Shown here: positions 7,605-31,225 of the stretch, piece by piece | Layout: each line of letters opens with the position of its first letter | Position numbering within the stretch: position 1 is the first letter of the stretch | DNA from: a virus | Direction: 5' to 3' (one strand) | Length of the DNA: 64,000 nt | Virus record (IMG/VR): IMGVR_UViG_3300036945_000814 | Location: 32,001 to 96,000 of that record | The notes under the pieces: model-generated | What the model saw: the letters and a program-made list of their open reading frames with translations, nothing else | Databases searched by the model: none | Told to the model about the DNA's origin: nothing | Program-made: the position numbers and the translations under genes

Positions 7605-10600
7605 ATGAGCCTGATCCTCGACCTCAAGAAAAGCGCCGCCATCCTGAACGCAGGCGGCGAGGGGCAAGAGAAGCGGTGGACGCGCTATCCGGGCGCCGCC
7701 AGCATGTTCAACGCCCGCGACGCCGAGCACCGCGAGACGCAGCGGCTCATGACGCAGATGCCCACGCCGAAGCTCGCCATCAGCGACGGCAACTTCACGA
7801 GCCCCGACGACGTGGTGAAGGGCCTCGGCTTTGGCGCCACCGACGAGACGTTGTGGGCGCACCGCGTGGCCCGCATGGTCGCCCGCGCGCCGAGCGAAAT
7901 GGCGCTGCGCAAGGCTGTCGTCGGCGACCTCCGCGGCGAGGCCCTTGAGCCCCCGCTGCGCGCCGAGCTTGGCCGCCGCATCCTCTCGCTGTACCGGCAG
8001 AGCGCCGGCGGCAAGCCGCTTGAGAAGGGCTTTCCGCCGAAGAAGGGCGCTCCGCCCGCCGGCGGCCGCCCGCCCATGATGGGCGCCCCCGACGAAGACG
8101 AGGGCAACAGCGCCGGCGGCGACGGCGCCGCCGGTCCCGCCCCGATGCCGAAGCCCGCGATGAAGCCGGGCGGCCCGATGGGCAAGCCCGCCTCTCTCGG
8201 CGGCAAGCCCGGCGAGGCCCCCGGCGGCGTCGGCCGCAACCCCGCCGTCGACGCCGCGGAGCTGACCGAGCTGCCCGACGACAAGAGCCTGTTGCAGAAC
8301 AAGATCCATGCGCTGCACGAAGACCTCAAGAGCTGCCAAGGCCCGATCACCGGCAACGCCGCGCTGATCCACATGCACAACGACATCAAGGCGCAGATGC
8401 GCGCCGCCTACCGCGATCCGAACCCCGAGATCGTGAGCGACATCGATCACAAGATCCATCACTTCAAGAAGATGCTCGAAGGCCCGCCCCCGCCCGAGGT
8501 CGACCCCAACGACCCCAACGCGCAGGGCGACCCCGGCGCCGGTGGCTACGGCGACCGTGGCGGCCCGCCCAAGCCCGGAGCGATGGCCGGATCCCCGCCC
8601 TCCGGCCGGCAGCCCGGCAAGCGCCCTCCGCCGCCGCCCATGATGGGCAAGAGCGAGCGCGCCAAGGGCGCCCGAAAAGGAGGGCCACCCCGCCCTTTTG
8701 ACCTTGGCCGCCGCGCGATTGCCGCGGCGGCCTTCGACGACTTCTGCAAGGGCGCCGGACACAAGTACCTGCGGCGCCTGCCGACGGGGAAGGCGAAGCC
8801 GCGCTATCGCTACATCTACAACGCCGCCAAGGCCGTCGACACCAAGGCGCGCCCGAGCGTCGGCGAGAAGATCAAGGTCGATCACAACGGACAGGCCGGT
8901 CACTACGAGGTGAAGCGCGTCATGCGCTCCGGGCAGGTCGAGATCCATCACGACGAGACGGGTCACCGCATGGTGATCCACCGATCCAAGCTGCACGACC
9001 TCGTGCGCGACGTCCACGCACCCGCCAAGCTCGACCGCCAGCTCGAAAACCAACGCCTCGACGAAGCGCACCGCAAGGTCGACATGCTTCCCCGATCCAA
9101 GCAGGGCGTGCTCGACAGTATCAAGGCCGCGAGCGGCATCGACGACCACGACCTCGCACAAGCCGACGCGGCCTACGCCGCGTGGAAGGGCCGCGGCCGC
9201 AAAGGCCCGAAGCCGACGCGCGCTGGCAAGGGCGGCGAGCTTGACTCGTTCTCCGGCGACCTCAAGCGCGGCAAGCACTACTCGTCGCTGCTCGAAGCGT
9301 TCGAGGTCGCCACCAAGGGCGCAAAGACGTGGCGCGACATCGCGCCCGTGATCCAACAGCTCCGCGAGGTGCCGGGATTCGAGAACGCGCACCTTCCCGA
9401 AGACGCCTTGCTGCGGCACGCGATGCAGGACCGGGAGCGCGAAGACGCCCCCGACACGCGCCGCGTGGACCCCGAGACGTATGGATCGACGCTGTCGAAC
9501 ACCGTCGATGACGGCGGCTTTGACTGGACGAGCGGCGAGCAGCACCCGGCCCTGTCCACGCCCTCGCAGCTCAAGGCGGCGAAGAAGCGCGCCGCAGCAG
9601 CGAAGAAGGCCGGCAAGGCCGCCGAGCCCGTCGCCCCGCCGCGCGAGGCCCCCGCCGTCGCCGACGACGAGCCCTACACGCCGTCGGACCCCGACGCCCC
9701 CGGCGCGGACAGTGGCGAGCCCGAGCCCGCCGGCGATGTTTCTTTCGACTTCGGCGCCAGCGCGCCCGACGAGCCCGATGAGTGGGGAACCGATATGTGG
9801 CGATCCGACGTGAACCTTGTCCTCGATCTGCGCAAGGCCGCGGACATTTTCGACGGCGTCTCCAAAGAGGAAGCGCGTGGCCTCGCCCGTGCGCTCAACG
9901 TCGACATGGGGAAGATCGATCTCGCACAGTGGAAGCGGGGCATCGCGCATGAGCGCGAGCACTCCGACCTCACCCGCGACCCCGTCAAGATCGCGCGCAT
10001 CGCTCTCGCCCACCTCAAAGAAGATCCATCGTACTACGTCAAGCTCGGCAAGATGGAGAAGGCCGACGGCGGCACCGTGACGATGAAGGCCCCCAAGGCG
10101 CCCGCGCCGCCAGCGCCAAAGGCCCCCGCTCCCGCCCCCAAGGCCCCGAGCGCGTCTCCCGCTCCCGCCGCCGCCCCCAAGCCCCCGAGCGCCCCCGCGC
10201 CGTCCGCAGGGGCATCCACGGCCGTCGGCCGGGCACCGAAGCCCCCGAGCGCCAGCGCGCCCCCGCCGCCGTCGGCGAAGCCGACGGCGCCCCCGCCGTC
10301 GAGCGCAGCAGCTCCGACCAAGGCCGGCCCGGCCCCGAGCGAGCCCGCGCACGCCAAGTTCCAAGAGCTGCAAGCCAAGCACGCCGAGGCCCTGTCGTCG
10401 CTCCAAAGCGCGCACGCCGCCATGACCGCGCACGCCGAGAAGCACGGCATCGCCATGCCCTCGTCGAGCGCGCCGCCGACGACGTCGAACGCACCGACGG
10501 CGATCTCGGGCAGCGGCCCGCGCGTCGACCACAGCGTCGCCCGCGGTCCAAGCTCGGCAGCGCCCGCCGCCCCGGCGGCGCACGATGACGACGTGTTCGC

Positions 10601-13600
10601 CCCCATCGGTTCCGGCGGAGGTGCCACCGGCGTCGCCCGCAAGACGCCCGCCCCCGGCAAGCCTGCCGCTGGCAGCGACGGCAGCGAGTTCAAGCACCTT
10701 TCCGGCCCCGTCTCCGGCGAGACGCCCGAGGAGTCGGTGCCCAAGGCCGACGGCATCCTCGCCCACGGCGTCGTCGGTCACACGTCGAGCGGCAAGCAGG
10801 TGTCGCTCGGCATGAACACCGACAAGCTCACGCCGCAGGAGGCGCACGAGGCGTCGTTGCTGCACCGTGACGCGCAGGAGCACTTGCTCAACGCGGCACG
10901 GCACACGGGCAACGCCGAGTACAAGACCGCCGCGCGTGCGCACCTCGACGCCGAGTTTTCGCACGCATCGAGCAGCGTGAGCGCGACCGCTCAAGCCACC
11001 GATCCGACTGAGCAGAAGCCGTGGGCCGGTCCCGGCGGAGGCGGGCCGGGCGCGCGCACCGCGGACGAGCACAAGCAGCAGGCGGCGGCCACGGACGCTG
11101 TCGCCGACAAGCACGAGGCGGCCGGAAACACCAAGCTGGCGACGGTGTACCGCACCGCCGCTGACGCATCACGCAAGGCAGCGGCCTCGGCCCCGGCGAA
11201 GCCCGGCGCGGCGCCTGCGGCGCACGATGACGACGTGTTCGCACCGATGGGATCGGCCACGAAGTCTCTGTCGGCGGTGTGGGATCGGTTGTCCGCGTGG
11301 CACCCGTCGCCCATGTGGGCGGGCGAGGACATCGGCATGAGCTTCGGCCACCTTCTGAGCAAGGCGATGGGCGTCGAGCAGGCCGGGCACAAGTACATCA
11401 AGCGCACAGCCAAGGCCGGCGGCGGGTACGACTACGTCTACGCCGACGAGCCCCACAGCAAGGAAACGCTCAAGGGTGCGCCCATCGGGTCGACCTTGAC
11501 GGCGCTGCACAATGGATCGTCGGCGACGTACACGAAGAAGGGCAAGGACGACTGGCACGGCGCCACCGGCGGCCCGATCTCGTCGGGATGGTTCGTGGGC
11601 AAGCCCGGAATGCTCACGCACGGCCCCGCACACCCCGAGCCCGTCCACGCGCCGGCGCCGGCGCCCGTCGCAGCTCCGCCGGCACCGAAGCCCACGGCCT
11701 CGAAGCCTGCCGGCAAGCCCGTGCAGGGCAGCCTGTTTGACATGCTGACGGCGCCCGCCCCGGCGGCCGAGCGCCCCAACAACTTCGAGACGATGCCCGA
11801 CAAGCCGGCGGCGTCACCGATGGCGGAGGCCGTGAAGGAAGCCGAGAAGCAGCCGGCGACGTTCGAGGTGCAGGCCGCTGCGGCCATCGACGACGCGAAC
11901 GCCGCCGACGACCGCGGCGACGAGGCCGCCCACCGCGAAGCAAGCAAGCGCCTCGCCGAGATCCGATCTGCGGCCGCCGAGGCCGAAAAGCCCGCAGCGC
12001 CCGAGCGCGACCGCCCCAACAACTTCGTCACCATGCCGGATCCCGAGCCCGGCGAGGCCAAGCCGAAGGCGCCGTCGGCCGCCGAGAAGACGAAGCGCGA
12101 GAAGTTCGAGGAAGCCAAGGCCAAGGCCGGCGCAGCCTCACCGATGGCCGAAGCGACGAAGGAAGCCACCAAGCAGCCCGCCGACGTGAGCGGCGCGTGG
12201 AAGCTCACCTACGACGCGGAGGCGGAAGACGCGGAAGAGGCCAAGATCAGCGAGCGCCACGCGAAGTTTCTGGAGGACAAGAAGAAGGCCCTCGCCGTCG
12301 CCGAACGCGCTCAAAAGAGCGCGCAGCACAGCATCGACTACGACAAAGAGCACTTCAAGATGAAGCGCGACGGCGTGCCGTGGGCCGCGAAGCCGACGCA
12401 GCTCAAGTCGCTGCAACTGCGCACCGCAGAGCTGGCGCACGCCAAGATGGATCTTGAGTACTCCACGCAGCGTTTTGCAGGCGCCGCCAAAGAGCGAGCG
12501 GAGCAGCGCGCCACCCGCAAGGCCGCCGCGGAGCGCCATGTGCGTGAAGCCCCGGAGCGCACGAAGGTCGCAGCCGCGGCCCGCGAGCGCATCGCCGCCG
12601 AAGAGGCACGCCAGAAGGCGGCCCGGCTCGTGATGACCGAGTCGACGAAGACCTCCCGCCAGCGCGAGCGCGAGACGGGTGAGCACATCGCCGCTTCGGC
12701 AAAGGACCGCTCAGACGAACGTCGCATGATCACGACGGGCGACCTTGGATCGATGACGTTCTCCGACGCGCACCGTCTCGTGAACAAGCGGAACGCGATG
12801 CCGGTCTACGGCGCCGACGAGTTCCAAGCCAAGGGCGCGAGCCCCGGCGCGGCCCACATGGGCCTCGCGCTGGCGAACCTCATCGCGCCGTCGCCGCCCG
12901 AGGACAGTGACGACGCCCGCCGCCGGTACCTTGAGGGCATCCGCCTCGTGCATGGCGTGCTGGACAGCGCGAACACCGTCGCCGACTACGCCGAGGCGCG
13001 CAAAGAGCTTGCGGCCATGCACAGCGGCGACAACGTCCCGAAGACGGAGATCCATTCAGCCGTCAAAAAGACGGCTGACGAAAAGGCGGCTGACGTCAGA
13101 AAATACCAAGCGGACTACCGCGCTTGGCAGTCCTCCCACAGCGGCACTCGCCCCGAGTCGCCGCAGGACTATCACGGCATCACCACCTACCCCGGAAACT
13201 ACATCCGCGAGGTGTTGACGCCCCGTGTGAAGGCGCAAGATCCAGACCTTGAGGTCGGCTACGAGTACGTCGATTCTGGCGGCGCCGGTGAGCGTCTGTC
13301 GTTCTTCACCTATTCCAAGTCGAGGAAAGAGGCGATGCGCAAGACCATCGACGCCCTCGGCAAGAGGTTCGTCGATCATGTGGTCGGCGACGGGAAGGTC
13401 TGGAACGACGCGAAGGCCAAGGCGCAGGAAGCCGAAGACATGGGCCTTGCCGGGTGGGATCACCTCGACAAGACCGACGAGGAAAAGGCACGAGCGCGGG
13501 AAGCCACCAAAGCCGAGAAGGCGAAGCTGGCGGAGAACGAGAGTGGCAGCGGCAAGGAAACCAAGCTCCGCTGGCGCCGGTCGATCTCGAAAAAGCCCGC

Positions 13601-14618
13601 CGTGATCGGCGCCAAGGTCACGATCACAGACTCGGACCCCGAGCGGTTCCGCAAGACCTTCAACTTCCGTGGCGAGCAGCCCGGCGAGGCCATCCCCGAC
13701 GCCGAGCTGAATCACCACCGCAAGTACGCCGAAATGGCGTTCCACGACCTCGCCGACGTGCTCGGCATCGAGCCCCGGCAGGTGTCGATGAACGGTCGGC
13801 TCGCGATGGCGTTTGCCGCGCGCGGCAAGGGCGGAGCGATGGCCCACTATGAGCCGGCGGAAAAGGTCATCAACGTCACCCGGTTCGCAGGTGCCGGTAC
13901 CGTCGCCCACGAGTGGGGGCACTTCATGGACAACATCGTCGCCGAGCTGCACCGAGGTGGGTCCACCAAGAGCGCCGTGTACGCATCCGCGGGTGAGGGC
14001 GAGGGGATGCCGGCGGAGCTTGCCGCGGCCTACGCGAAGTTCAACGCCGCGCTGAAAGAGCCGAACCCCAAGACGATCGAACGCTTGAAGAAGGATCACG
14101 CCGACCTCGACAAAGAGTACGAGGACACGCGGAAAATGCTGAGAGAACACCCCGCGAACACGAGGGCCGACAAGACACCCGAGCAGCGCAAGGCCGACGT
14201 GGACAGCTACAACGTGATCGTCAAGAACCTTGGGCACATTTCCACGCAGCAAAAGCTCATCCAAAACTTCCTGCGCAACCCGACGTCGGACTACATGCAC
14301 GACGCCATCGGCCGCGACGGCGGAAGGCGCGGCAAGTATTGGTCGAACCCGCAGGAGCTTTTCGCCCGCGCCTTTGAGAGTCATGTGCAGCACAAGCTCG
14401 AAAGCCAAGGCCGGCGCAACAGCTACCTCGTCGACGGCGCTGTCGGCCCCGGCAGCCCCTACCCGCAGGACGATGAGCTGTCGAAGATCCACGGCGCGAT
14501 CGGTGGCATCATCACGGCCATTCACGGCGCCAAGCTCTTCGAGAAGGCCCTCAAGGCGCTATCGTCTGTCCCGCTGACGGCGCGGCGGCGCGGCCCCAAG
14601 CTCGTGATCGCCGCTTAG
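7605..14618 (+). CDS. Giant polyvalent head-associated protein (2337 aa): Pro/Ala linkers, two GHKY modules, DUF5661-like domain, C-terminal zincin (HEWGH) plus LPD1-like domain
   Basis: GIAHEREH...IALAHLKEDPSYYVKL (DUF5661-like); LAMAFAARGKGGAMAHYEP...AGTVAHEWGHFMD and YWSNPQELFARAFE (LPD1-associated metallopeptidase fold); lies between terL and portal. Confidence 0.85.
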   Translation: MSLILDLKKSAAILNAGGEGQEKRWTRYPGAASMFNARDAEHRETQRLMTQMPTPKLAISDGNFTSPDDVVKGLGFGATDETLWAHRVARMVARAPSEMALRKAVVGDLRGEALEPPLRAELGRRILSLYRQSAGGKPLEKGFPPKKGAPPAGGRPPMMGAPDEDEGNSAGGDGAAGPAPMPKPAMKPGGPMGKPASLGGKPGEAPGGVGRNPAVDAAELTELPDDKSLLQNKIHALHEDLKSCQGPITGNAALIHMHNDIKAQMRAAYRDPNPEIVSDIDHKIHHFKKMLEGPPPPEVDPNDPNAQGDPGAGGYGDRGGPPKPGAMAGSPPSGRQPGKRPPPPPMMGKSERAKGARKGGPPRPFDLGRRAIAAAAFDDFCKGAGHKYLRRLPTGKAKPRYRYIYNAAKAVDTKARPSVGEKIKVDHNGQAGHYEVKRVMRSGQVEIHHDETGHRMVIHRSKLHDLVRDVHAPAKLDRQLENQRLDEAHRKVDMLPRSKQGVLDSIKAASGIDDHDLAQADAAYAAWKGRGRKGPKPTRAGKGGELDSFSGDLKRGKHYSSLLEAFEVATKGAKTWRDIAPVIQQLREVPGFENAHLPEDALLRHAMQDREREDAPDTRRVDPETYGSTLSNTVDDGGFDWTSGEQHPALSTPSQLKAAKKRAAAAKKAGKAAEPVAPPREAPAVADDEPYTPSDPDAPGADSGEPEPAGDVSFDFGASAPDEPDEWGTDMWRSDVNLVLDLRKAADIFDGVSKEEARGLARALNVDMGKIDLAQWKRGIAHEREHSDLTRDPVKIARIALAHLKEDPSYYVKLGKMEKADGGTVTMKAPKAPAPPAPKAPAPAPKAPSASPAPAAAPKPPSAPAPSAGASTAVGRAPKPPSASAPPPPSAKPTAPPPSSAAAPTKAGPAPSEPAHAKFQELQAKHAEALSSLQSAHAAMTAHAEKHGIAMPSSSAPPTTSNAPTAISGSGPRVDHSVARGPSSAAPAAPAAHDDDVFAPIGSGGGATGVARKTPAPGKPAAGSDGSEFKHLSGPVSGETPEESVPKADGILAHGVVGHTSSGKQVSLGMNTDKLTPQEAHEASLLHRDAQEHLLNAARHTGNAEYKTAARAHLDAEFSHASSSVSATAQATDPTEQKPWAGPGGGGPGARTADEHKQQAAATDAVADKHEAAGNTKLATVYRTAADASRKAAASAPAKPGAAPAAHDDDVFAPMGSATKSLSAVWDRLSAWHPSPMWAGEDIGMSFGHLLSKAMGVEQAGHKYIKRTAKAGGGYDYVYADEPHSKETLKGAPIGSTLTALHNGSSATYTKKGKDDWHGATGGPISSGWFVGKPGMLTHGPAHPEPVHAPAPAPVAAPPAPKPTASKPAGKPVQGSLFDMLTAPAPAAERPNNFETMPDKPAASPMAEAVKEAEKQPATFEVQAAAAIDDANAADDRGDEAAHREASKRLAEIRSAAAEAEKPAAPERDRPNNFVTMPDPEPGEAKPKAPSAAEKTKREKFEEAKAKAGAASPMAEATKEATKQPADVSGAWKLTYDAEAEDAEEAKISERHAKFLEDKKKALAVAERAQKSAQHSIDYDKEHFKMKRDGVPWAAKPTQLKSLQLRTAELAHAKMDLEYSTQRFAGAAKERAEQRATRKAAAERHVREAPERTKVAAAARERIAAEEARQKAARLVMTESTKTSRQRERETGEHIAASAKDRSDERRMITTGDLGSMTFSDAHRLVNKRNAMPVYGADEFQAKGASPGAAHMGLALANLIAPSPPEDSDDARRRYLEGIRLVHGVLDSANTVADYAEARKELAAMHSGDNVPKTEIHSAVKKTADEKAADVRKYQADYRAWQSSHSGTRPESPQDYHGITTYPGNYIREVLTPRVKAQDPDLEVGYEYVDSGGAGERLSFFTYSKSRKEAMRKTIDALGKRFVDHVVGDGKVWNDAKAKAQEAEDMGLAGWDHLDKTDEEKARAREATKAEKAKLAENESGSGKETKLRWRRSISKKPAVIGAKVTITDSDPERFRKTFNFRGEQPGEAIPDAELNHHRKYAEMAFHDLADVLGIEPRQVSMNGRLAMAFAARGKGGAMAHYEPAEKVINVTRFAGAGTVAHEWGHFMDNIVAELHRGGSTKSAVYASAGEGEGMPAELAAAYAKFNAALKEPNPKTIERLKKDHADLDKEYEDTRKMLREHPANTRADKTPEQRKADVDSYNVIVKNLGHISTQQKLIQNFLRNPTSDYMHDAIGRDGGRRGKYWSNPQELFARAFESHVQHKLESQGRRNSYLVDGAVGPGSPYPQDDELSKIHGAIGGIITAIHGAKLFEKALKALSSVPLTARRRGPKLVIAA
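10575..11242 (+). repeat. Direct repeat pair encoding AAHDDDVFAP
   Basis: 26 identical nt (gcggcgcacgatgacgacgtgttcgc) at 10575-10600 and 11217-11242. Confidence 0.85.
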
Positions 14619-14629: not shown

Positions 14630-14657
14630 TTGACACTACGAATGGAGCGCCTACAAT
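14630..14657 (+). promoter_or_regulatory. Near-consensus sigma70 promoter
   Basis: TTGACA (14630-14635)-N16-TACAAT (14652-14657); predicted +1 falls at about the ATG at 14665. Confidence 0.7.
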
Positions 14658-17600
14658 GGTTCGCATGACCACACACGACACCATCGAAGACGCTTCCTTC
14701 GGTTTGCTGCTCAAGGCCGACATCGACGACGCCCTCGACGATCTCGAAAAGGCTTTCGGGTCGGAGCGGGCCGGCCACAAGTACAGCTCCCGCCGACGCA
14801 ACGCGAAAGGCGAGTGGGAGTACGAGTACGCCACCGACAAGACGAAGGCGCACGCGCAAATGGCGTTCACCTTCGCCGCGGCGCACGGCACCCCCGAGCA
14901 GCAGGATCGCGCCCTCGACGTGCTCAAGCGCGTCGAGCCGGACAGGTGGCCCGACCACGTCCACGCGGCCAACGTCGCGCACGAGGCCGCGGTCATCCAC
15001 GCGGCGAACGTCGCCCACGAAGCGGCCGCCCGACCCCTGCCACCATCGCCAGCGCACGAGCACAGCCCCCCGGCCGCCGCCGCGCCCCCTGCCGTCGTGA
15101 GGTTCACGCAGGGCGAGCCCAAGCCCGCCGTCGCCGCGGCCCGTGCGCTGGATGCCTCCCGTGCGAGCCTGATCCGCGCTGGCATCGGCCTGCGCGCCAA
15201 CGCAGAAGAGAAGACCCCTATCGAGGCCGTGGCCGGCCGCGCGGCCGCGCTTCGCAGCTCCGCCTCGTCGCTTTTCAATGAGTCGATCCGCATGGGCATC
15301 GTGAACGACGACCCGCGCACCGCGCGGAAGTTCACGGCCGAGGAACATCGGGCGCTGGCCGCCGCGCACACCGCCCTCTTCGACGAGTTCCGCGAGCTGT
15401 ACGCGCGCTCGATGACGATGCGCATTCGCCCGCCCTCCGGCATGACCGCCGCCGACGCCGATGCGCTCCGCTCCCAGCTCGAACGCGACTTCAAGGGGCA
15501 CGCCAAGCTCGCTCAAGCCCACAACGACGCCGCCAACGCGGCGTCGGGCAAGCCCGCACCCGCGGCCGCTGTGCCGCTCGTGGTCGCGCCTGTGGCGACT
15601 TCGGTCGCTCCGGCGCTGGACGCCGGCCCGGTGCAGCTCATGGACGCCGCCGCCCGCCTCATCGCCGAGCGTGCGAGCGGCGCGCCGCCGGCGTTCAAGG
15701 CCGTCGACAACAACCGCGTCACCATCGGTGGCGTCAAGATGATCGTGCAGGGTGGCTTCCTCGGCGACGCTCCCGCGCACCGCGCGTGGGCGGAGACGGC
15801 CGGCACGTTCTCGGCCGACGCGCAGCACTTCGACGGCGGCCGGGCCTACCGCGTCGCCACCGAGGCGGAGCGTGTGGCCGCCGTGGCGATGATCCCGCGT
15901 CTCCGCGGCTCCGTGAACGTCAACGCGCCCGCACCGGCCCCTGCCCCGGCGCCCGTCGTCGCCGAGCCCGTGCGCCCCGTCGACGACTTCACCGGCGCGT
16001 TCAGGGCGCTGAGTGACGGCAGCGGCGCCGAAGAGATCGTGACGCTCCCGTCGGGATCCAAGATCGGGCTGTCCTACGTCAGCGGACAGGCCAAGGCGCG
16101 CCCCGTCGGAGGCGGCATCGGCCGCAAATGGGATGCGACCGCGACGAAGCGCGCCCTCGCCGCCTTCGAGGCCAAGGTCGCCGCCCTCGGCCCCGCGTGG
16201 CACGCCGCCCACAACGCCATGTACGGCGTCGCCGCCGCCCCGACGCCGCTCGTGGTGGCGCCCGTGGAGACGGCCGCGCCGAAGCGCAAGCGCGCCAACA
16301 ACTTCGAGACGATGCCCGACGGCGACAGGCCCAACAACTTCGACACGATGCCCGAGGAGATCAAAGACCCGTCGCCGCGCGCCACAAAGATCCGAGAAAA
16401 CCGCGAAGCTCGCGAAGCCGAAGCCGCGTTGGAAGCCGGAGCCGAGCGACTGACGGGCGAAGAACGCCACGCCGCCCTGACCCGCATGGGCCAACACTTG
16501 CACGAGGTGCAGGACTTCCGGGCCGGCAAAGACGACACGGGCATGAGCGGCGCCGACATGCTGACGTGGCGCCGATCGACCACCGCACCCCGCAAGGCCA
16601 GCGTCCTCCGCAAGTACCGCCGCCAGCTCGTCGAGAGTTTCGGCGACCTCTACTTCAAGGCCGGGCTGCACGAGAAGGAGCCGATCCCCAAGGGGCACGT
16701 TCCTGCCGTCGGCGAATGGACCGAGCGCGGCGGGCTCGTCATCAAGGCCGACGGCTACCTCGGGACGAAGTTCAACGCATGGAAGAACCTGCTCAAAGAG
16801 CACGGCTTTCGCTGGAATGGATCACGCGGCGACGAAAGCGCCGACGGGATGCACGCAGAGAAGGCGGCGCTGCTCGACATCCCCGGCTTCATCGAGGCGG
16901 CGAACAAGATCGGGATCCATGTCGAGATCCCCGAGAAGCCCGAGGTCGCCCTCGATGCGCCAGCGGCGGCCAACGAGCCCGAGGCGCCCCTGCCCACGCC
17001 CGAGCGGCCGTCGGCGGATCGCCCGACGACCACCGAGGACACGCAGCGGGTCATCAACGCCATTCGCGCCAAGCAGGGCCAGCGCGGCACCGTCGCCGTC
17101 ACCGTGAAGCCCGACGGCAAGTTTGCTTTCTACGCCGTCGACTACCGCAAGACCGAGGTGCCCGGCTCGTTCAACCACATCATGTCGAACAAGAACGGGC
17201 AGATCACCGGGCTCATGGAGGTCGACTCCAAGGACGCTTTCTCGCGCACCACCTACGACGCCGCCCTCGTGACCGAGGCGCTTGGCAAGCTCCGCGACGC
17301 CAACCCGACCTTCCATTTCTACATCGACCCGAAGGCCGCCGCCGCCATCGACAAGGCCGGCGCCGACAAGGCCGCAGCCGAGAAGCCGATCCCAGAAGTC
17401 GAGGCCCTGCTTGCCGACGGCTTCGCGCTCAAGCCCTACCAGAACGCGATGGTGCGGTTCCTCGACAGCAACGACGGCAACGCCATCGTCGGCGACGAAA
17501 TGGGCCTTGGCAAGACGCTGCAATCGCTCGCGTGGGTGGCGAAGAACAACAAGAAGGCCATCGTCGTCGTCCCCAAGGTCGTGCGCCGCACTTGGATCGA

Positions 17601-24162: not shown

Positions 24163-27100
24163 GTGGCGCTGTGGACTGCCGATCAGCTTGCGAAAGTCCG
24201 CGCCGTCATCGCGCGGCACCATGCGGCGATCACCATCGCCATCTTCGGACACAAGGCCCTGCCCGACGACCTCGTCAAAGACCTCCGGGCCTCCGGCATC
24301 CCCGTGCCCACCGGCCCGCAGCTCATCGACGACGCCTTCACCTACGGGCAGCTCGTTGCCCTCCTTCGCGATCCGAAGCTCGCCACCAAGAGCCCCGCCG
24401 AGATCGCCGAGCTTGTGGCCGCCCGCAAGATCCCGTTGCAGCTCACGCCGTCTGAGAAGGCCGCCGTCGAAGTCGCGCGCACGCACGCCGGGCAGTACGT
24501 CGTCGGCCTCGGCACCCGCGTCGCGGGGCAGGTCATGGCCGCCGTCACCGGCGCCGAGGCCAACCTCACCCCCGAGCGCATGGTCGAGATCATTCAGGAC
24601 AAGACCGCCGGCAACCTCGCCCGGCGCGAGACGATCGACAGCCTGAGATCCGACCTCGGGCACGCGATGGGCAACTGGACCCGCGACTGGCAGCGCATCG
24701 CGATGACCGAGTCGAACAACGCGATCCAAGAAGGCACCGCGGCCACCATCGAGAAAGAGCACGGCGTCGACGAGCTTGTGTCGAAGATGCCGCGCCCCGA
24801 CGCCTGCCCGGACTGCAAGCGCCTGTACCTCCGCGGCGGCGAGCCCATCATTTTCAAGCTCTCCGAGCTGCGTGCCAACGGCAGCAACGTCGGCCGAAAG
24901 AAGCGCGACTGGAAGCCGACCATCGAGGCCGTCCACCCGTGGTGCGGATGCGTGCTCGTGCGAATCCCCGCGGGCATGGTCTGGGAGGACGGCGAGCTTG
25001 TCGTCGACAAGGCGGAGAAAAGCCAAGCGGGTATTGAAATGCCCGCCCGGCCCGCATTTCAATACCCGCTGCGGAAAGCCGCCCGCAAGCTCCACGGTCG
25101 CCTCACGTTTGCCGGGATGCCGATCAGCATCGAGAACCGCCGGGGCTCGTTCCGCCATTGGTTCGACCCGGTCGCCAAAGAGCACGGCAAGACCAAGGTG
25201 CTTTTCCCCTACGGCTACATCCGGCTCACCGAGGCCGCCGACGGCGACCACGTCGACGTCTACGTCGGCCCGCTCAAGACGGCGCCCAACGTCTACGTCG
25301 TCCACCAACGCAAGAAGAAACCGGATGGATCTTTCGGCGGCTACGACGAGGACAAGGCCATGCTCGGTTTCCCGTCGGCCAGCGCGGCGAAGCGGGCCTA
25401 CCTCGCGCACTACAGCGACCCGAGATTCTTCGGGGCGATGACGACCATGACCGTCGCCGAGTTCAAGGTAAAGCTCGTGGAGAACCGGGGGCGAAAGATC
25501 ACGAAGGCATGGCGCGAGCCGACGGCGCTCGTGATCGACATGCTGGCGAAGAGCTATGCCCCGTGCGTGCGCTGTGGCGAAATGTCGAAGGAGTCGAGCA
25601 GCGACGGCGCCGAGCCGTGCTGGACGTGTCGCAAGGCGCTCGAAGCCGCCGGTACGCCCTACGTTCGCGCCGGGTGGAAAGACGGCGTGGAGCTGGCGAA
25701 AGCCGGCGGCCCGTACATCGGCCCCAAGGGCGGCAAATGGGCCGACCCCGAGCACACCGTTGCGTGGCAAGAGCCCGGCGGCGTCGAGAGCCTGCCCCAC
25801 CTTGAGGACGAAAAATGGGATGACGGCACCGTCGTTCGCTGGCGGCAAAGCCCGTTCGTTCACGCGCCGCCCCGGTCAAAGCCGCAGCTCCCGTCGTCAA
25901 CGCCAACCTCGATCGAGCACGTTCCCCTCGACAAGCTGCACGCAACGCAGAAGCGCGTCACCGAGGGGGGCGTGCAGAAGTACCTCGACAAGCCGTTGAA
26001 CGCGGCCGCCGACGACAAGCTCGATCTCCCGCTCGTCACCGTCGACAAAGACGGCAAGCACTTCATTCAGGACGGGCACCACCGTCTCACGGCCGCCAAG
26101 CTCCGCGGCGAGGCGTCCGTTCCCGTCCGGGTGCAGCGAGAAAAGGCCGAGGAGAAGAAAACGCACGAACCGCTGGCGCCCGACTACGAGCCGAAGGTCG
26201 GCGACGAGCACGCGATCCCCGGCCCGCACGGCATGGCCGCGTTCACGGCGCGCATCGAGCACGTCGGCGACGACCATGTGCGGATCTCGCAGAACCACGG
26301 CGACGAGCGTCGCGGCACAGGGGCTCACGGTACAAGGGTGCCGAAAGCGGCGGTGTCGCACTTCGTCAACGACCTCCGCGGCGTCGTTCACGGCCCGCCG
26401 TCGAGCGACCCGCGCGTGCAGGCGGTACTCGACGGCAAGGCCGAGCACCTTGGCAAAGGCGACGACGGCATCGCCTTCCGCGTCGGCGACACCGTCGTCA
26501 AGGCGTCGACGACGGTGCCCTACCAACCGTTCAACGAAAACTACTTGACGCCGGCGACGGCGGCCGAGCGCATGGTCGAGCAGGTGAACACGTCGAACGC
26601 GATGCACGCCGACGGCGTGCCCGGCATCATGCGTTCCGAGCTTGTCCACAACGGCGACAAGGCGTTTCAGATCAAGCCCTACGTCGAGATCCCCGACAAG
26701 CTCACCCGCGAACAACTCGACAGCGTCGCCGATTCAGTGCTCAAGGCGCACGCCGCCGGCTACACGTTCAACGACGAGATCCAAGTAGGCGTTCACGAGG
26801 GCAAGCTCGTTCACTTCGACACCGGCAAGGCGGCGAAGGCGCCCGACGAGAAGCGCCTCAAAGAAAGAGCCGAAGACGACGAGGAACGCCTCAAAGACCT
26901 CTTCGCCAAGCACGGCGAGAAGTTCCAGACGACGAAAGAGAAGCACAACCCGCTCATCGAGTGGGAGGAAATGGCGTCGCGAGATCCAAAGAAGATGACA
27001 GATGCCGAGCGCAGCAAGCACGCCTCGCTTCTGTGGATGCACAGCCTCAAGGTGAAGTCGTTTCGCGATCGGGCTGATCCCGTCGACAAAGACTTCTACG

Positions 27101-27621
27101 ACGTGGTCTACAACAACCAAGAGATCGAAGACGCCATCAATCGGTTCAAGTCGCCGATCCGAGAAGCCATCGACGTGCTCAAGTCTGCGTTCGATTCCAT
27201 GAGCGCCGGTGAATCCATCGAGCAGCTTGGCCGCTCGACGTCGCGACTCGGTATGATGAGCTGGCGTGGAAACGAAGACTCACCCCGGCCCGAGCGCCCC
27301 GCGGACATCGTCGGGATCACCGACGACATGGGGCTCACCGTCAAGGGGCGGAAGAAGCGAAAGAAGAAGCACGCCGAGGACAAAGCCGACGCGCGACGCA
27401 GCCGGTTGTCGCCCGCAGACCGCTTCGCCGCCGCCAAGCGGATGCCCAAAAAGGACGCCGTGAAGCCCCTCGCCCCCGACGCGCTCAAGGAAGCCCGTGA
27501 GCAGTCGCGAGACGCCGTGGAAGCCAAGCGCGAGCGCATCCGCGACGACCTCGCTCGGCGGCAGGCGAACAAGCCCCCGATGGATCCCATCCGCATTGCG
27601 CGAGCGAAGGGAGAATCGTGA
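24163..27621 (+). CDS. MuF (phage head morphogenesis) protein fused to inorganic pyrophosphatase-like, Zn-finger, ParB-like and protein-kinase-like domains
   Basis: MuF: RIAMTESNNA...CPDC...HPWCGC. PPase: ISIENRRGS...YGYI...DGDHVDVYVG...DEDKAMLGF. CVRC/CWTC. ParB-like: LHATQ...IQDGHHR. Kinase-like: LGKGDDG..VVK...FNDEIQV...HFDTG. Confidence 0.88.
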   Translation: MALWTADQLAKVRAVIARHHAAITIAIFGHKALPDDLVKDLRASGIPVPTGPQLIDDAFTYGQLVALLRDPKLATKSPAEIAELVAARKIPLQLTPSEKAAVEVARTHAGQYVVGLGTRVAGQVMAAVTGAEANLTPERMVEIIQDKTAGNLARRETIDSLRSDLGHAMGNWTRDWQRIAMTESNNAIQEGTAATIEKEHGVDELVSKMPRPDACPDCKRLYLRGGEPIIFKLSELRANGSNVGRKKRDWKPTIEAVHPWCGCVLVRIPAGMVWEDGELVVDKAEKSQAGIEMPARPAFQYPLRKAARKLHGRLTFAGMPISIENRRGSFRHWFDPVAKEHGKTKVLFPYGYIRLTEAADGDHVDVYVGPLKTAPNVYVVHQRKKKPDGSFGGYDEDKAMLGFPSASAAKRAYLAHYSDPRFFGAMTTMTVAEFKVKLVENRGRKITKAWREPTALVIDMLAKSYAPCVRCGEMSKESSSDGAEPCWTCRKALEAAGTPYVRAGWKDGVELAKAGGPYIGPKGGKWADPEHTVAWQEPGGVESLPHLEDEKWDDGTVVRWRQSPFVHAPPRSKPQLPSSTPTSIEHVPLDKLHATQKRVTEGGVQKYLDKPLNAAADDKLDLPLVTVDKDGKHFIQDGHHRLTAAKLRGEASVPVRVQREKAEEKKTHEPLAPDYEPKVGDEHAIPGPHGMAAFTARIEHVGDDHVRISQNHGDERRGTGAHGTRVPKAAVSHFVNDLRGVVHGPPSSDPRVQAVLDGKAEHLGKGDDGIAFRVGDTVVKASTTVPYQPFNENYLTPATAAERMVEQVNTSNAMHADGVPGIMRSELVHNGDKAFQIKPYVEIPDKLTREQLDSVADSVLKAHAAGYTFNDEIQVGVHEGKLVHFDTGKAAKAPDEKRLKERAEDDEERLKDLFAKHGEKFQTTKEKHNPLIEWEEMASRDPKKMTDAERSKHASLLWMHSLKVKSFRDRADPVDKDFYDVVYNNQEIEDAINRFKSPIREAIDVLKSAFDSMSAGESIEQLGRSTSRLGMMSWRGNEDSPRPERPADIVGITDDMGLTVKGRKKRKKKHAEDKADARRSRLSPADRFAAAKRMPKKDAVKPLAPDALKEAREQSRDAVEAKRERIRDDLARRQANKPPMDPIRIARAKGES
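25026..25070. repeat. Perfect 17-bp inverted repeat with 11-nt loop inside the MuF fusion CDS
   Basis: agcgggtattgaaatgc (25026-25042) is the exact reverse complement of gcatttcaatacccgct (25054-25070). Confidence 0.95.
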
Positions 27622-27951: not shown

Positions 27952-28794
27952 TTGCAGGAATCAGACGCTCCGGCATTCAACTTCGACTTCGACATCGAAG
28001 TGTTCGAGAAGGCCGGCGTCGCTCCTGAGAAGGCGCGCCGCATCGGCGGCTTCGTGTCCACGAGCGCCCTCGACAAGCAGGGCGAGCGCGTCTTGCAGGA
28101 AGGGCTCGACTTTTCCCCGTTCCTGCAAGACGGGTGGTTCAACGACAACCACAGCAAGGCCACCGCCGACATCGTCGGCTTCCCCGAGACGGCCAAGCTC
28201 ATCCGCAAGGGCGAGCGCCTGCCGAGCGGCACGTCGGCCGACAAGACCGGATGGTTCGTCGAGGGCTACCTCCTGCAAGGGCACCCGCCGAGCGACCGTA
28301 TCTGGGAGCTGGCGAAGGCGTTGCAGAAGACGCCGCGGCGTCTCGGGTTCTCCGTCGAGGGCCGCGTCACGCAGCGGATGAACAAGGCCGGCGAGCCCAT
28401 CGTCGCCCGCGCCGTCGTCAAAAACGTCGCGGTCACCAACTGCCCCGTCAACAATCAGACGTCGCTCGAAGTGCTCGCCAAGAGCCTGAGCGCCATCGAA
28501 ATGAGCAAGGCGCTTGAGGTCGGGCCGCCGCCCGGTCCCGCGAGCGACCCCGGCTCCATCCCCGCCGGCGTGCCCCTGTCGGGCATGGGCGCGGGCCGCG
28601 TGCTCATGCCTGAGTCGATCGGCGGCTACGCCGGCGCCTTCGGCAACCCCAACGGTGCGCAGCCCCGGAAGAAGAAGAAGAAGAAGCTCACCAAGAGCGC
28701 CGCGTTGGATCTCATTCACAGCCGCTATCCGGGCATCACCAACCACACGGCGGCGCGGATCTTCCGCTTCGCTGTCGCACACGCCTCTCACTGA
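27952..28794 (+). CDS. Prohead maturation protease (HK97/herpes-fold serine protease)
   Basis: AGGAG RBS plus TTG start; GFVST..LDKQGE, FNDNH (His), LGFSVEG (Ser), VAVTNCPVN; lies upstream of scaffold and MCP. Confidence 0.9.
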   Translation: MQESDAPAFNFDFDIEVFEKAGVAPEKARRIGGFVSTSALDKQGERVLQEGLDFSPFLQDGWFNDNHSKATADIVGFPETAKLIRKGERLPSGTSADKTGWFVEGYLLQGHPPSDRIWELAKALQKTPRRLGFSVEGRVTQRMNKAGEPIVARAVVKNVAVTNCPVNNQTSLEVLAKSLSAIEMSKALEVGPPPGPASDPGSIPAGVPLSGMGAGRVLMPESIGGYAGAFGNPNGAQPRKKKKKKLTKSAALDLIHSRYPGITNHTAARIFRFAVAHASH

Positions 28795-28814
28795 GAGAGC
28801 AGGAGAAGAACCAC

Positions 28815-29723: not shown

Positions 29724-29785
29724 TCGCCGGCTGAATCCCGTTCACGACCACCGTTCACTTCACAGAAGATCCAAGGAGAATCACC

Positions 29786-31225
29786 ATGAGCTACGGTACT
29801 TTTGTCGGCGCTTCCGACTACGACGGCATCGAAGGCTTCGGCTCGGCGAGCGCCGAGGAAATGCAGAACCTCAACAAAGCCTTGCGCTCCGGTCAGGACC
29901 GCAACGCCCCCGGCACCGTCGTCGCTGGCGACGGCTTCACCCTCAAGCCTGAGAGCTTGGATCGCACGTTGAAGAACGTGACGTACCGGATGGAGCACAT
30001 CCAGTTCTGGAAGTTCCTCGACAAGACCCCGGCCTACAACACGGTCGAGGAGTACAGCCGGCTCCGTGAGTACGGCAACGGCGTCGCGGCCTTCATCGAG
30101 GAAGGCGAGCTGCCCGCCGAGGACGACGCGACCTACTCGCGTGAGTTCAACATCGTGAAGTACATGGGCACGACCCGGCGCATCACGCATGTGATGCAGA
30201 CCGTGCGCACCCACATCGGCTCCGCGGTCGCGCAGGAGACGGTCAACGGCACCATGTGGCTGCTCCGGCAGGTCGAGAAGGCGCTGTTCTACGCCGACTC
30301 GTCGATGGTCCCGGCCGAGTTCGACGGCCTCTTCACGCAGCTCGAAGCGCAGTCGCCGAACATCGTCGACATGCGCGGCAAGCCGCTCAACCAAGACGTG
30401 ATCGAGGAAGCCGCGCACGTCATCCGGGCTTCGCCCAACTACGGCATCCCGACGGATCTGTGGATGGCCGACGGCGTCTACAGCGACCTCGCGCGCCTGT
30501 TCTACCCCACGCAGCGCAGCGAGATCCCGACCCCGGCCAGCGCCGGTGACGGGTACGTCGGCTTCGCGGTGAAGGGGATGCGCACGCAGGCCGGCCCGAT
30601 CCGGTTCCAGCCCGACGTGTTCATCGAGCCCGGTCGCGCCCCCGCGGCCGCTGGCATCGGCGACATCGCCAAGCGCCCCGGCCTCCCCACCATCGGCGTC
30701 GCCGCCGCTGGCGCCCCCGGTGGCGGTGAGGTGTCCCTGTTCGTCGGCGCCAGCGAGGACTTCCGCTACCGCGTGGTCGCGAAGAACCGCTACGGCCTGA
30801 GCGTCCCCGTGGACGTGAACGGCGGCGCCGCGATCACCGTGGCCGCCGGCCAGAAGGTGTCGTTCACGATCACCGACGGTTCGCCGTTGGCCTCGTGCTA
30901 CGTCATCTACCGCACCAAGGCGAACGGCCTGCTCGTCGACGCCGTCGAAATGATCACCGTGCGTCGCACCGGCGCCGTCACGGCTTTCGGCGATCTCAAC
31001 AAGGATCTGCCCGGCACCACGAAGGCCGCGCTGTTGCAGGGCAACCGCGAGAACATCATGGTCAAGCAGCTCGCGCCGTTCACGCGCATCCCGCTCGCCA
31101 CCGTCGACACGTCGATGCGTTGGTCGCAGGTGCTCTACCTGACGCTCACCCTGCACAGCCCGAACAAGAACGTGCTGTTCAAGAACGTCGGCCGCATCGA
31201 GGGCACCAAGAACCTCGCCGTCTGA
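29786..31225 (+). CDS. Major capsid protein (Twort/A511-like)
   Basis: AAGGAG RBS; LKPESLDRTLK, TVEEY, FIEEG, AEFDGL, NIVDMRGKPL, YGIPTDLWM, YRVVAKNRYGLS patterns; N-terminal propeptide ending LNK|A (K31). Confidence 0.92.
   Translation: MSYGTFVGASDYDGIEGFGSASAEEMQNLNKALRSGQDRNAPGTVVAGDGFTLKPESLDRTLKNVTYRMEHIQFWKFLDKTPAYNTVEEYSRLREYGNGVAAFIEEGELPAEDDATYSREFNIVKYMGTTRRITHVMQTVRTHIGSAVAQETVNGTMWLLRQVEKALFYADSSMVPAEFDGLFTQLEAQSPNIVDMRGKPLNQDVIEEAAHVIRASPNYGIPTDLWMADGVYSDLARLFYPTQRSEIPTPASAGDGYVGFAVKGMRTQAGPIRFQPDVFIEPGRAPAAAGIGDIAKRPGLPTIGVAAAGAPGGGEVSLFVGASEDFRYRVVAKNRYGLSVPVDVNGGAAITVAAGQKVSFTITDGSPLASCYVIYRTKANGLLVDAVEMITVRRTGAVTAFGDLNKDLPGTTKAALLQGNRENIMVKQLAPFTRIPLATVDTSMRWSQVLYLTLTLHSPNKNVLFKNVGRIEGTKNLAV

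What the first reader, a model, noticed from the sequence alone, without database searches (positions are those of the whole stretch)
7605..31225. Candidate protease-processed capsid-cargo system: hydrophobic-x-K|[S/A/G] sites punctuate the whole head module
Seen: the MCP N-terminus has LNK|A (K31). The scaffold has about 10 such motifs in 302 aa (LFKS, LIKA, LTKS, MAKS, MTKS, LAKS, LEKS, MRKS, LTKG, IAKS). The protease (FEKA, LAKS, MSKA, LTKS) and portal (LAKG, VQKS) have them near their termini. In the giant proteins they fall at domain edges: LKKS, LEKG, MGKS, FCKG, LRKA, MEKA, LSKA, FEKA (2337 aa); LLKA, LEKA, IEKS, LIKA (1443 aa); LLKS, MGKS, LAKS, LRKS (752 aa); LRKA, ITKA, LAKS, LAKA, VLKS (MuF fusion). 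Known: the A511/Twort-like MCP propeptide is removed at a Lys|Ser bond, and T4 gp21 and phiKZ gp175 process many internal head proteins at short motifs. Inference: about 17 kb of genes encode polyproteins that are packaged in the prohead, cut by the protease at 27952 into separate effectors, and probably ejected with the DNA. Caveat: K and A are common here and a few such motifs also occur in the TMP and sheath.
Basis: partly seen in the sequence, partly recalled or inferred. Interest (0 to 1): 0.93.

Follow-up and report, generated by a model that had tools for sequence, protein, structure and literature searches.

The report
Lysine-tagged phage head cargo proteins
An uncultured 107-kb phage encodes four giant multi-enzyme proteins among its head genes. 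Their starts and some internal joints carry the short lysine signal that fills its scaffold and protease, so the head protease probably trims and partly cuts them inside the capsid, but no cut has been measured.

Summary
However, the loose motif [LIMFV]-x-K-[SAG] is no more frequent than chance in the three giant proteins (observed/expected 11/9.6, 7/6.6, 4/3.0). It is strongly enriched only in the scaffold (11/1.3) and the protease (7/1.4).

A sharper signal does exist:
- L-D-L-x-K followed by S/A/G occurs 3 times in the cargo proteins (0.04 expected) and nowhere else in the genome.
- It forms the first 7-13 residues of the giants and of their relatives, and it lies at gene-split and module-shuffle points.
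- 45 distant LPD1 polyvalent proteins carry it only at chance level.
- Motif lysines are kept in 83% of aligned relatives, against 54% for other lysines.
- Four sites are followed by a shared ~25-residue G-H-K-Y...Y-x-Y-x-Y tag.

The head genes are Herelleviridae-type (27-42% identity).

Best reading (0.55): these are packaged polyvalent proteins. The prohead protease cuts their N-terminal leaders and some, not all, of their inter-module linkers. Cleavage, packaging and ejection are unmeasured.

This scan has already reported the same principle in Mx1-like and LE1-like phages. This window is a separate, uncultured lineage.

The parts
7605..14618 (+). 2337-aa polyvalent cargo protein. Order of elements: leader; two helical domains; tag plus alpha/beta module; DUF5661 (residues 758-819); second tag module; HExxH zincin motif (residue 2102); LPD1 (2238-2306).
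   Evidence: Pfam and PHROG hits. HExxH motif conserved in all close relatives and in 9 of the 45 distant ones. AF2 domain map of residues 1-900.
7605..7631 (+). N-terminal leader of the 2337-aa protein, ending L-D-L-K-K|S (K9).
   Evidence: The same leader type starts relatives P0017, P0018, P0019, P0022, P0023 and two proteins of relative G001. Low pLDDT in the model.
8748..8819 (+). Junction K382|G followed by the G-H-K-Y tag (residues 383-405).
   Evidence: Aligns with the very N-terminus of separate genes in G001, P0018, P0019 and P0021. Lysine and motif kept in 9 of 9 relatives. Disordered in the model.
9834..9836 (+). Junction K744 (L-D-L-R-K|A), directly upstream of DUF5661.
   Evidence: Three alignments to relatives end exactly here. 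Kept in 4 of 4 relatives. Lies in the disordered stretch 673-752.
11361..11447 (+). Junction K1253|A followed by the second G-H-K-Y tag.
   Evidence: Matches K335 (L-D-L-R-K|G plus tag) of the G001 1189-aa protein. Kept in 5 of 5 relatives.
14656..18987 (+). 1443-aa cargo protein with an SNF2-type helicase (residues 886-1389).
   Evidence: Pfam SNF2-rel_dom and Helicase_C; phrog_62 at E 9e-85.
14656..14835 (+). Double leader site (K20, K32) followed by the G-H-K-Y tag (residues 33-60).
   Evidence: All five family relatives, at 48-74% identity, keep both sites and the tag.
18928..18975 (+). C-terminal pair of sites, K1425|S and K1440|A (K1440 is 3 residues from the end).
   Evidence: Kept in all five relatives. 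C-terminal sites of the loose motif are not unusual in other proteins (5 of 83).
19018..21276 (+). 752-aa cargo protein of no known family: leader, tag, variable His/Ala-rich helical bundles, conserved C-terminal domain.
   Evidence: No Pfam or PHROG hit. 13 relatives found. AF2 model pLDDT 69. No fold match in PDB.
19018..19140 (+). Leader ending L-L-K|S-D-D-G (K17), like the scaffold's K15 site, followed by the G-H-K-Y tag (residues 18-41).
   Evidence: Leader and tag conserved in P0075-P0077, P0080 and others. In the model K17 lies in coil between helix 3-12 and a three-strand sheet at 24-45.
20701..21084 (+). Sites K562|S, K643|S (L-D-L-A-K|S) and K689|S around the conserved C-terminal domain of the 752-aa protein.
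   Evidence: Kept in 4/6, 7/9 and 7/9 relatives. K562 sits right after the last bundle helix, at the start of a disordered stretch. K643 sits at the start of a helix.
21285..23045 (+). Portal, with conserved terminal sites K55 and K561.
   Evidence: Pfam Phage_portal. Both sites are present in G001 and G002. Homology to Herelleviridae portals begins only at residue ~62-77.
24163..27621 (+). 1152-aa cargo protein: MuF-like N-terminal part (weak), InPase (residues 311-437), weak ParB-like match. Candidate sites K283/K305, K463 and K513.
   Evidence: Pfam InPase at E 4e-33. Residues 1-288 are a separate gene in G001, and there InPase sits in another protein right after an L-F-K|A site. phrog_115 at E 4e-4.
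27952..28794 (+). Prohead protease. Candidate catalytic residues His67 and Ser133 (G-F-S-V-E-G). Candidate self-cut sites K177, K186, K248.
   Evidence: phrog_1028 at E 3e-41. 27-42% identity to Herelleviridae prohead proteases. His, Ser and K177|S are invariant in an alignment that includes Listeria phage WIL-1.
28815..29723 (+). Scaffold with 11 motif sites.
   Evidence: Enrichment z 8.6. Sites conserved across 14 relatives down to 37% identity.
29786..31225 (+). Major capsid protein with a candidate propeptide junction at K31|A32 (29876-29878).
   Evidence: phrog_752 at E 4e-81. N28, L29, K31 and A32 are invariant in 3 lineage members. The WIL-1 MCP has K23|S24 at a comparable place.

Best explanation
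The four large proteins encoded among the head genes are phage polyvalent proteins that are loaded into the prohead. Each giant starts with a short leader of the form hydrophobic-x-hydrophobic-D/L-hydrophobic-x-K followed by S/A/G. This leader is often followed, after a flexible spacer, by a ~25-residue G-H-K-Y-x-x-R...G-x-Y-x-Y-x-Y tag, which the one model that covers it with some confidence (p752, pLDDT about 50) draws as a small beta sheet.

The Herelleviridae-type serine prohead protease cuts after Lys in hydrophobic-x-K|S/A/G. It is proposed to:
- chop the scaffold into about ten peptides;
- remove about 31 residues from the capsid protein;
- trim its own tail and the ends of the portal;
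- remove the cargo leaders;
- cut a minority of inter-module linkers (2337-aa protein at K382, K744, K1253; 1152-aa protein near K305 and K463-K513; 752-aa protein at K562-K689).

Because modules carry their own signal, they can be moved between genes, fused or split without losing loading and processing.

What is shown here: motif statistics, conservation, position and domain content. What is inferred: cutting, packaging and ejection with the DNA.
For: 1. The core motif is dense and conserved in the canonical protease substrates. Scaffold 11/1.3 and protease 7/1.4. Scaffold lysines are invariant or nearly so across 14 relatives, with P3 = L/I/M, P1' = S (75%)/A/G and acidic residues or Pro at P4-P6.
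2. Cargo proteins carry a sharper form. LDLxK[SAG] is 3/0.037 in cargo and 0/0.1 in the other 22,780 residues; [LM]xKS is 7/2.06 in cargo and 3/4.7 elsewhere.
3. After hydrophobic-D-L-x-K, the next residue is S/A/G/T in 20 of 22 cases against a background of about 0.3. This is the same P1' rule as in the scaffold.
4. Position. A loose site lies within the first 35 residues in 7 of 9 called head-module proteins, against 4 of 84 others (Fisher 1e-6). The same leaders recur in relatives.
5. Gene splits and module shuffles fall on sites. K382 equals the N-terminus of four relatives' genes, alignments end at K744, and K1253 matches G001 K335.
6. Motif lysines are kept in 83% of aligned relative cells against 54% for other lysines. 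Per site the figures are 12/19 against 69/246 (p 0.002).
7. Clade specificity. Close relatives show 12 sharp sites against about 0.9 expected. The 45 distant LPD1 proteins show 9 against about 6.5 and have no tag.
8. Models place K9, K349, K382, K744, K17 and K562 in disordered or edge regions.
9. The protease is homologous to Herelleviridae prohead proteases, and the K177|S self-site is conserved even in Listeria phage WIL-1. The WIL-1 MCP has K23|S24.
10. Published precedents: the T4 capsid-targeting sequence and SPN3US gp245 propeptides (PMC10052503), and the P1 DarB N-terminal 30-residue capsid-targeting signal (PMC9024508).
Against: - No experimental datum exists for this uncultured lineage.
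- The loose motif is not enriched in the giants.
- A position matrix trained only on scaffold sites gives weak enrichment in cargo (7/3.06, p 0.035) and misses the MCP and portal sites.
- Copies 2-5 residues from C-termini would gain little from cutting, which hints at a docking role.
- K643 is modelled at the start of a helix, and K72 and K103 inside a folded domain.
- The share of sites in low-pLDDT regions (6 of 8) is not significant, because half of the modelled residues are low-pLDDT.
- The sharper motif and the 35-residue window were chosen after seeing the data.
- Many counts include homologous positions and so are not independent events.
- The 2337-aa protein carries its own zincin motif, which could do the cutting.
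Confidence: 0.55

Rival explanations
1. The motif is a docking or structural tag, not a cut site. The leader and the G-H-K-Y tag bind a prohead component (scaffold, portal, protease exosite or DNA), or pair as strands, and they recruit the proteins uncut. The likeness to the scaffold sites reflects shared binding rather than proteolysis.
For: - Copies sit 0-5 residues from C-termini, where cutting achieves little.
- The motif is coupled to a conserved tag and repeats up to five times with it in P0086.
- The alternating hydrophobic pattern suits strand or helix docking.
- N4 virion RNA polymerase and some polyvalent proteins are packaged unprocessed (PMC5512222).
Against: - The strict small P1' residue (20/22) and the Lys at P1 mirror the pattern in scaffold, protease tail and MCP propeptide, which are classical cleavage substrates.
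- The spacer between Lys and tag varies from 2 to 20 residues and is Gly-rich, as expected of a linker.
- A seven-residue leader is unlikely to fold on its own.
Confidence: 0.2
2. The cuts are made by the zincin-like metallopeptidase embedded in the 2337-aa protein (H-E-W-G-H at residue 2102), as Iyer et al. proposed for polyvalent proteins in general, and not by the prohead protease.
For: - The HExxH motif is conserved in all close relatives and in nine of the distant ones.
- A published hypothesis says MPTase domains release the modules of polyvalent proteins (PMC5512222).
Against: - The same P3/P1/P1' pattern fills the scaffold, the protease tail and the MCP N-terminus. In Herelleviridae relatives, which lack such cargo, these are prohead-protease substrates.
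- Distant relatives that carry the same zincin motif lack the Lys motif.
- No Pfam peptidase model matches the region.
Confidence: 0.12
3. Composition and chance: Lys-, Ala- and Leu-rich helical proteins produce such tetrapeptides, and the conserved ones are simply parts of folded domains.
For: - The loose motif is at expectation in the giants.
- K72, K103 and K2314 look intrinsic to their domains.
- C-terminal loose sites occur in 5 of 83 other proteins.
Against: - The sharp motif occurs 3 times against 0.037 expected and is absent from the rest of the genome.
- N-terminal placement, P1' restriction, clade specificity and excess conservation all argue against chance.
Confidence: 0.05

Closest known systems
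Polyvalent proteins of phages and conjugative elements (Iyer, Burroughs, Anand, de Souza, Aravind 2017, PMC5512222)
   Same: Giant multi-domain proteins carrying LPD1, InPase, an SNF2-type helicase and an HExxH peptidase-type motif. They are encoded next to portal and terminase genes and are predicted to be packaged and processed.
   Different: That work assigns processing to embedded MPTase domains. Here the junction and leader signal matches the prohead protease's own substrates. A leader-plus-G-H-K-Y tag was not found in that paper by the term searches run here; its supplementary files were not read.
T4 internal proteins IPI-III and Alt, with a capsid-targeting sequence removed by gp21; phiKZ gp175 and SPN3US gp245 substrates (PMC10052503)
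   Same: A short N-terminal propeptide that ends in the protease's motif. The same motif occurs in scaffold, capsid, portal and the protease's own tail. The proteins are carried in the head.
   Different: The protease family and code differ (Glu at P1 there, Lys here). The cargo here consists of very large shuffled multi-enzyme chains with internal copies of the signal. Nothing has been measured here.
Phage P1 Dar system: DarB (250 kDa helicase/methylase) with an N-terminal 30-residue capsid-targeting signal, encoded next to portal and protease (PMC9024508)
   Same: A giant helicase-bearing protein encoded beside portal and protease genes and loaded through an N-terminal signal.
   Different: The P1 capsid protein is cut after Glu. 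DarB is not known to be cut into modules.
Herelleviridae (SPO1/A511/K-like) head module
   Same: MCP, portal and protease are homologous at 27-42% identity. There is a Lys|Ser junction near the MCP N-terminus and at the end of the protease domain.
   Different: The window has 67% G+C and a 107-kb genome, and no cultured relative was found. The cultured relatives searched show no match to cargo module 383-744. In WIL-1 the scaffold motif density is much lower (3/1.5).
Lys-motif cargo polyproteins reported earlier in this scan (Mx1-like and LE1-like phages)
   Same: The same principle: hydrophobic-x-K|S/A at the MCP, scaffold, protease tail and cargo joints.
   Different: No look-alike stretch to those windows. 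Those notes are unchecked AI reports. The D at P4 and the G-H-K-Y tag may be specific to this lineage.

Membership tests
Phage polyvalent proteins (Iyer et al. 2017) | Two or more unrelated effector-type domains in one polypeptide | tested here: met
   DUF5661, HExxH motif and LPD1 in one protein; SNF2 helicase plus large unknown regions in another; InPase plus a weak ParB-like match in a third.
Phage polyvalent proteins (Iyer et al. 2017) | Encoded in a phage with a portal-terminase system, next to head genes | tested here: met
   The genes lie between TerL and the portal, and between the portal and the protease. The same layout is seen in relatives G001 and G002.
Phage polyvalent proteins (Iyer et al. 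2017) | Mosaic domain shuffling among relatives | tested here: met
   Modules sit in different genes in G001, G002 and P0017-P0023.
Phage polyvalent proteins (Iyer et al. 2017) | Zincin MPTase domain (common, not obligatory) | tested here: inconclusive
   A conserved H-E-W-G-H motif is present, but no Pfam peptidase model matches.
Prohead-protease-processed head cargo (T4 IP/Alt, phiKZ, SPN3US type) | Prohead protease gene in the head module | tested here: met
   phrog_1028 at E 3e-41; homologs annotated as prohead protease; conserved His67 and Ser133.
Prohead-protease-processed head cargo (T4 IP/Alt, phiKZ, SPN3US type) | The same short motif occurs in capsid, scaffold and protease and at cargo N-termini | tested here: met
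   This holds for the sharp motif and for N-terminal placement, not for overall density of the loose motif.
Prohead-protease-processed head cargo (T4 IP/Alt, phiKZ, SPN3US type) | Cargo is present in virions and cleaved at the motif | not testable with these tools
   Uncultured lineage; no proteome available.
Herelleviridae-type head module | Homologous MCP, portal and protease | tested here: met
   31-34% (MCP), 36-39% (portal) and 27-42% (protease) identity by tblastn.
Herelleviridae-type head module | MCP propeptide removed at a Lys|Ser bond | tested here: inconclusive
   The WIL-1 MCP has K23|S24 and the window has K31|A32, invariant in 3 lineage members. The primary A511 papers were not available, so the cut itself rests on my recollection.
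MuF (SPP1 gp7-like) minor head protein fusion | Match to the Phage_Mu_F domain | tested here: inconclusive
   No Pfam hit. phrog_115 'minor head protein' at E 4e-4 on residues 140-266. The position after the portal fits.

The most novel reading that the evidence does not exclude
A portable two-part signal both loads a protein into the prohead and tells the head protease where to cut. Its parts are a 7-20-residue leader ending hydrophobic-D-L-x-K|small and a ~25-residue G-H-K-Y tag. If this is so, phages of this lineage can swap, fuse or split enzyme modules freely. The tag could also be used to load foreign proteins into capsids with Herelleviridae-type heads.
Probability: 0.3. Interest if true: 0.75.

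Novelty: new variant of a known kind. Interest (0 to 1): 0.6.

Why it matters
Polyvalent proteins are widespread in phages, yet how they reach the capsid and how their domains are released is unsettled. The published proposal is self-cutting by embedded zinc peptidases.

A leader and junction code that matches the head protease's own substrates gives a concrete, testable alternative: protease plus tagged fragments in E. coli. It would also explain why modules shuffle so freely between genes. If the leader-plus-tag unit is sufficient for loading, as the T4 capsid-targeting sequence and the P1 DarB N-terminus are, it would offer a handle for loading proteins into capsids of a large phage group.

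The caveats are serious. The lineage is uncultured, every functional step is inferred, and this scan has already reported the same principle in other lineages.

Tried and rejected
- Loose motif density in the giants: at chance.
- Position matrix trained only on scaffold sites: weak in cargo (7/3.06) and blind to the MCP and portal sites, so not a useful detector.
- Sites in low-pLDDT regions: 6 of 8, but half of the modelled residues are low-pLDDT, so not significant.
- Extreme C-terminal sites as a special class: the loose motif occurs there in 5 of 83 other proteins. Only the conserved and sharp copies remain notable.
- Function of the 752-aa protein: no Pfam or PHROG family, and Foldseek against PDB found nothing at E <= 0.001.
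- Protease against solved structures by sequence, and against Pfam at lenient cut-offs: nothing credible.
- Scaffold and cargo module 383-744 against deposited phages: no match.
- IMG/VR scans gave only four related contigs.
- Literature for a direct Lys|Ser cleavage record in A511- or K-like phages: the primary paper is not held, and the searches gave no usable statement.
- The LE3/LE4 proteome paper concerns unrelated 48-kb phages.

Full report
WHAT THE WINDOW IS. The window is bases 32001-96000 of a 107,025-base IMG/VR virus record rated complete. It has 67% G+C, and my calls put nearly all genes of the window on the + strand. The stretch 5909-31225 is a head module:
- large terminase, 5909-7600
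- a 2337-aa protein, 7605-14618 (DUF5661 and LPD1)
- a 1443-aa protein, 14656-18987 (SNF2-type helicase)
- a 752-aa protein with no family, 19018-21276
- portal, 21285-23045
- three small genes
- an 1152-aa protein, 24163-27621 (InPase, weak ParB-like match)
- prohead protease, 27952-28794 (phrog_1028)
- scaffold, 28815-29723
- major capsid protein, 29786-31225 (phrog_752)
Downstream lie a sheath, baseplate proteins and other tail genes. MCP, portal and protease are 27-42% identical to those of SPO1/A511/K-like Herelleviridae. No deposited phage matches the scaffold or a cargo module.

CHECK OF THE OBSERVATION. Against 1000 shuffles of each protein, the loose motif [LIMFV]xK[SAG] is strongly enriched in the scaffold (11 observed, 1.33 expected) and the protease (7, 1.4). 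It is marginal in the 1152-aa protein (10, 5.1). It is not enriched in the three giants (11/9.55, 7/6.64, 4/3.0), the portal or the MCP, and tail proteins are at expectation.

THE SCAFFOLD SITES ARE REAL. Fourteen scaffold relatives at 37-84% identity keep the lysines. K54, K64, K99 and K114 are invariant, and K156 and K229 nearly so. The pooled sites have L/I/M at P3, K at P1, S (75%), A or G at P1', and acidic residues or Pro at P4-P6. The MCP residues N28, L29, K31 and A32 are invariant in three lineage members. Portal K55 and K561 and protease K177, K186 and K248 recur in relatives G001 and G002. K177|S is conserved even in Listeria phage WIL-1, together with candidate catalytic residues His67 and Ser133. 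The WIL-1 capsid protein has K23|S24. This fits my recollection that A511-type capsid proteins lose 23 residues at a Lys|Ser bond, but I could not retrieve the primary paper.

A SHARPER SIGNAL IN THE CARGO PROTEINS. An 89-kb relative (G001; MCP 77% identical) showed a longer form: hydrophobic-D-L-x-K followed by S/A/G.
- In the window, LDLxK[SAG] occurs three times in the four cargo proteins (5684 residues, 0.037 expected). It occurs nowhere in the other 22,780 residues of the genome (0.1 expected) (Poisson 8e-6).
- [LM]xKS is 7 against 2.06 in cargo, 9 against 0.32 in protease plus scaffold, and 3 against 4.7 elsewhere.
- After hydrophobic-D-L-x-K the next residue is S, A, G or T in 20 of 22 cases, against a background near 0.3. 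This is the same P1' rule as in the scaffold.
- Among 52 homologs of the 2337-aa protein, the seven close ones all carry the sharp motif (12 observed, about 0.9 expected). The 45 distant LPD1 proteins do not (9 against about 6.5). The signal therefore belongs to this phage lineage and not to the LPD1 fold.

WHERE THE SITES LIE.
- The motif forms the very start of the giants and of their relatives, in leaders of 7-13 residues that end in the lysine.
- The helicase protein and all five of its relatives keep a double leader (K20, K32) and a C-terminal pair (K1425, K1440).
- The 752-aa family keeps a leader, a Gly-rich spacer and three K|S sites around its C-terminal domain.
- A loose site falls within the first 35 residues in 7 of 9 called head-module proteins, against 4 of 84 others (Fisher 1e-6). 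This becomes 7 of 12 if the three small ORFs that my gene caller missed are added. I chose the 35-residue window after seeing the data.

MODULE SHUFFLING. Modules are shuffled between genes among relatives.
- Residues 379-615 of the 2337-aa protein align with the N-terminus of separate genes in G001, P0018, P0019 and P0021. K382 therefore equals a gene start elsewhere.
- Three alignments end at K744.
- K1253 matches G001 K335.
- The first 288 residues of the 1152-aa protein are a gene of their own in G001. There the InPase module follows an L-F-K|A site in another protein.
- Other breakpoints (852-916, 1464, 1601-1684) have no site, so only some joints are marked.

CONSERVATION. Motif lysines are kept as Lys in 83% of aligned relative cells, against 54% for other lysines. 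Per site the figures are 12 of 19 against 69 of 246 (p 0.002).

A SHARED TAG. Four sites in three genes are followed, after 3-8 residues, by G-H-K-Y-x-x-R...G-x-Y-x-Y-x-Y. This pattern occurs nowhere else in the genome. Relatives have it too. One distant MuF-PBECR2 protein (P0086) repeats site plus tag five times. In the AF2 model of the 752-aa protein, the leader is a short helix, K17 is in coil and the tag forms a small three-strand sheet, all at low confidence. The 1152-aa protein has a second kind of post-site peptide (G-G-P-Y-I-G-P-K-G-G-K-W after K513). The same peptide follows the leader of P0079.

STRUCTURE MODELS.
- 752-aa protein (pLDDT 69): helical bundles span residues 110-558. K562 lies right after the last helix, at the start of a disordered stretch. 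K643 is at the start of a helix. K689 is in a low-confidence turn.
- Residues 1-900 of the 2337-aa protein (pLDDT 57): K9, K141, K349, K382, K744 and K819 lie in low-confidence or edge regions. K72 and K103 lie inside a confident helical domain and are probably not cut. Half of this model is low-confidence, so the placement is consistent with cutting but not significant.

INTERPRETATION. The best-supported reading is that these are polyvalent proteins in the sense of Iyer et al. (PMC5512222). They are loaded into the prohead, and the prohead protease removes their leaders and cuts some linkers at hydrophobic-x-K|S/A/G. Published precedents:
- the T4 capsid-targeting sequence and the SPN3US gp245 propeptides (PMC10052503);
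- P1 DarB, a 250-kDa protein encoded next to the portal and protease genes, whose first 30 residues suffice for capsid loading (PMC9024508).

Iyer et al. assign the processing of polyvalent proteins to embedded zincin peptidases. The 2337-aa protein does carry a conserved H-E-W-G-H motif, so that enzyme is a live rival. Against it, distant relatives with the same zincin motif lack the lysine signal, and the signal matches classical prohead-protease substrates.

A second rival is that the motif is a docking tag that is never cut. Copies 0-5 residues from C-termini point that way. The two roles may also coexist, as they do in the T4 targeting sequence.

RELATION TO EARLIER NOTES OF THIS SCAN. 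Other windows (Mx1-like and LE1-like phages) were reported with the same principle and a similar lysine motif. First readers of overlapping windows of this genome also noted the G-H-K-Y peptide. No look-alike stretch links this window to those genomes. These are unchecked notes and I did not count them as evidence.

VERDICT. The finding is a new variant of two known kinds joined together: polyvalent proteins, and protease-processed head cargo. Confidence in protease cutting of the leaders and of some linkers is 0.55. Nothing has been measured.

Noticed in passing
window 25702-25752: A second kind of post-site peptide (G-G-P-Y-I-G-P-K-G-G-K-W) follows K513 of the 1152-aa protein. It also follows the N-terminal leader of relative P0079 in place of the G-H-K-Y tag. 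It may be an alternative tag.
   Followed up: partly
window 9948-9962: DUF5661 (residues 758-819 of the 2337-aa protein) contains an H-E-R-E-H motif. This family of unknown function may bind a metal or be a small peptidase-like unit.
   Followed up: no
window 14316-14522: The LPD1 domain lies about 130 residues after the conserved H-E-W-G-H motif and contains E-x-F-A-x-x-F-E. LPD1 may be the C-terminal helix region of the same zincin-like domain.
   Followed up: no
window 27618-27839: A 73-aa ORF with a C-x-x-C zinc-ribbon-like start lies between the 1152-aa gene and the protease gene. It has a motif site at K13.
   Followed up: no
window 46668-49022: A 784-aa Ala/Gly-rich protein after the sheath gene, possibly the tape measure, has a site at K39 that scores as high as scaffold sites in the position matrix.
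   Followed up: no
G000:C1:29203-31323 (just upstream of the window): A 706-aa protein whose N-terminus looks like a deaminase starts with a leader-like P-M-N-K|S at K9, the top matrix score outside the head module.
   Followed up: no
L012:8712-11666 (- strand; relative G001): The large terminase of the relative is 984 aa against 563 aa here. The two homologous parts are separated by about 360 residues whose start (about residues 176-245) contains an L-L-V-G-D-G motif. This is probably an intein.
   Followed up: no
P0086 (distant relative of the 752-aa protein's tag): A 1202-aa MuF-PBECR2-MuF_C protein repeats 'hydrophobic-x-K|A, then H-K-Y-I-x-R-E-G-x-P-G-x-Y-x-Y-Y' five times, once before each module.
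   Followed up: partly
window 19345-20690: The middle of the 752-aa protein consists of His/Ala-rich helical bundles whose length and sequence vary widely among relatives. No fold match was found.
   Followed up: partly
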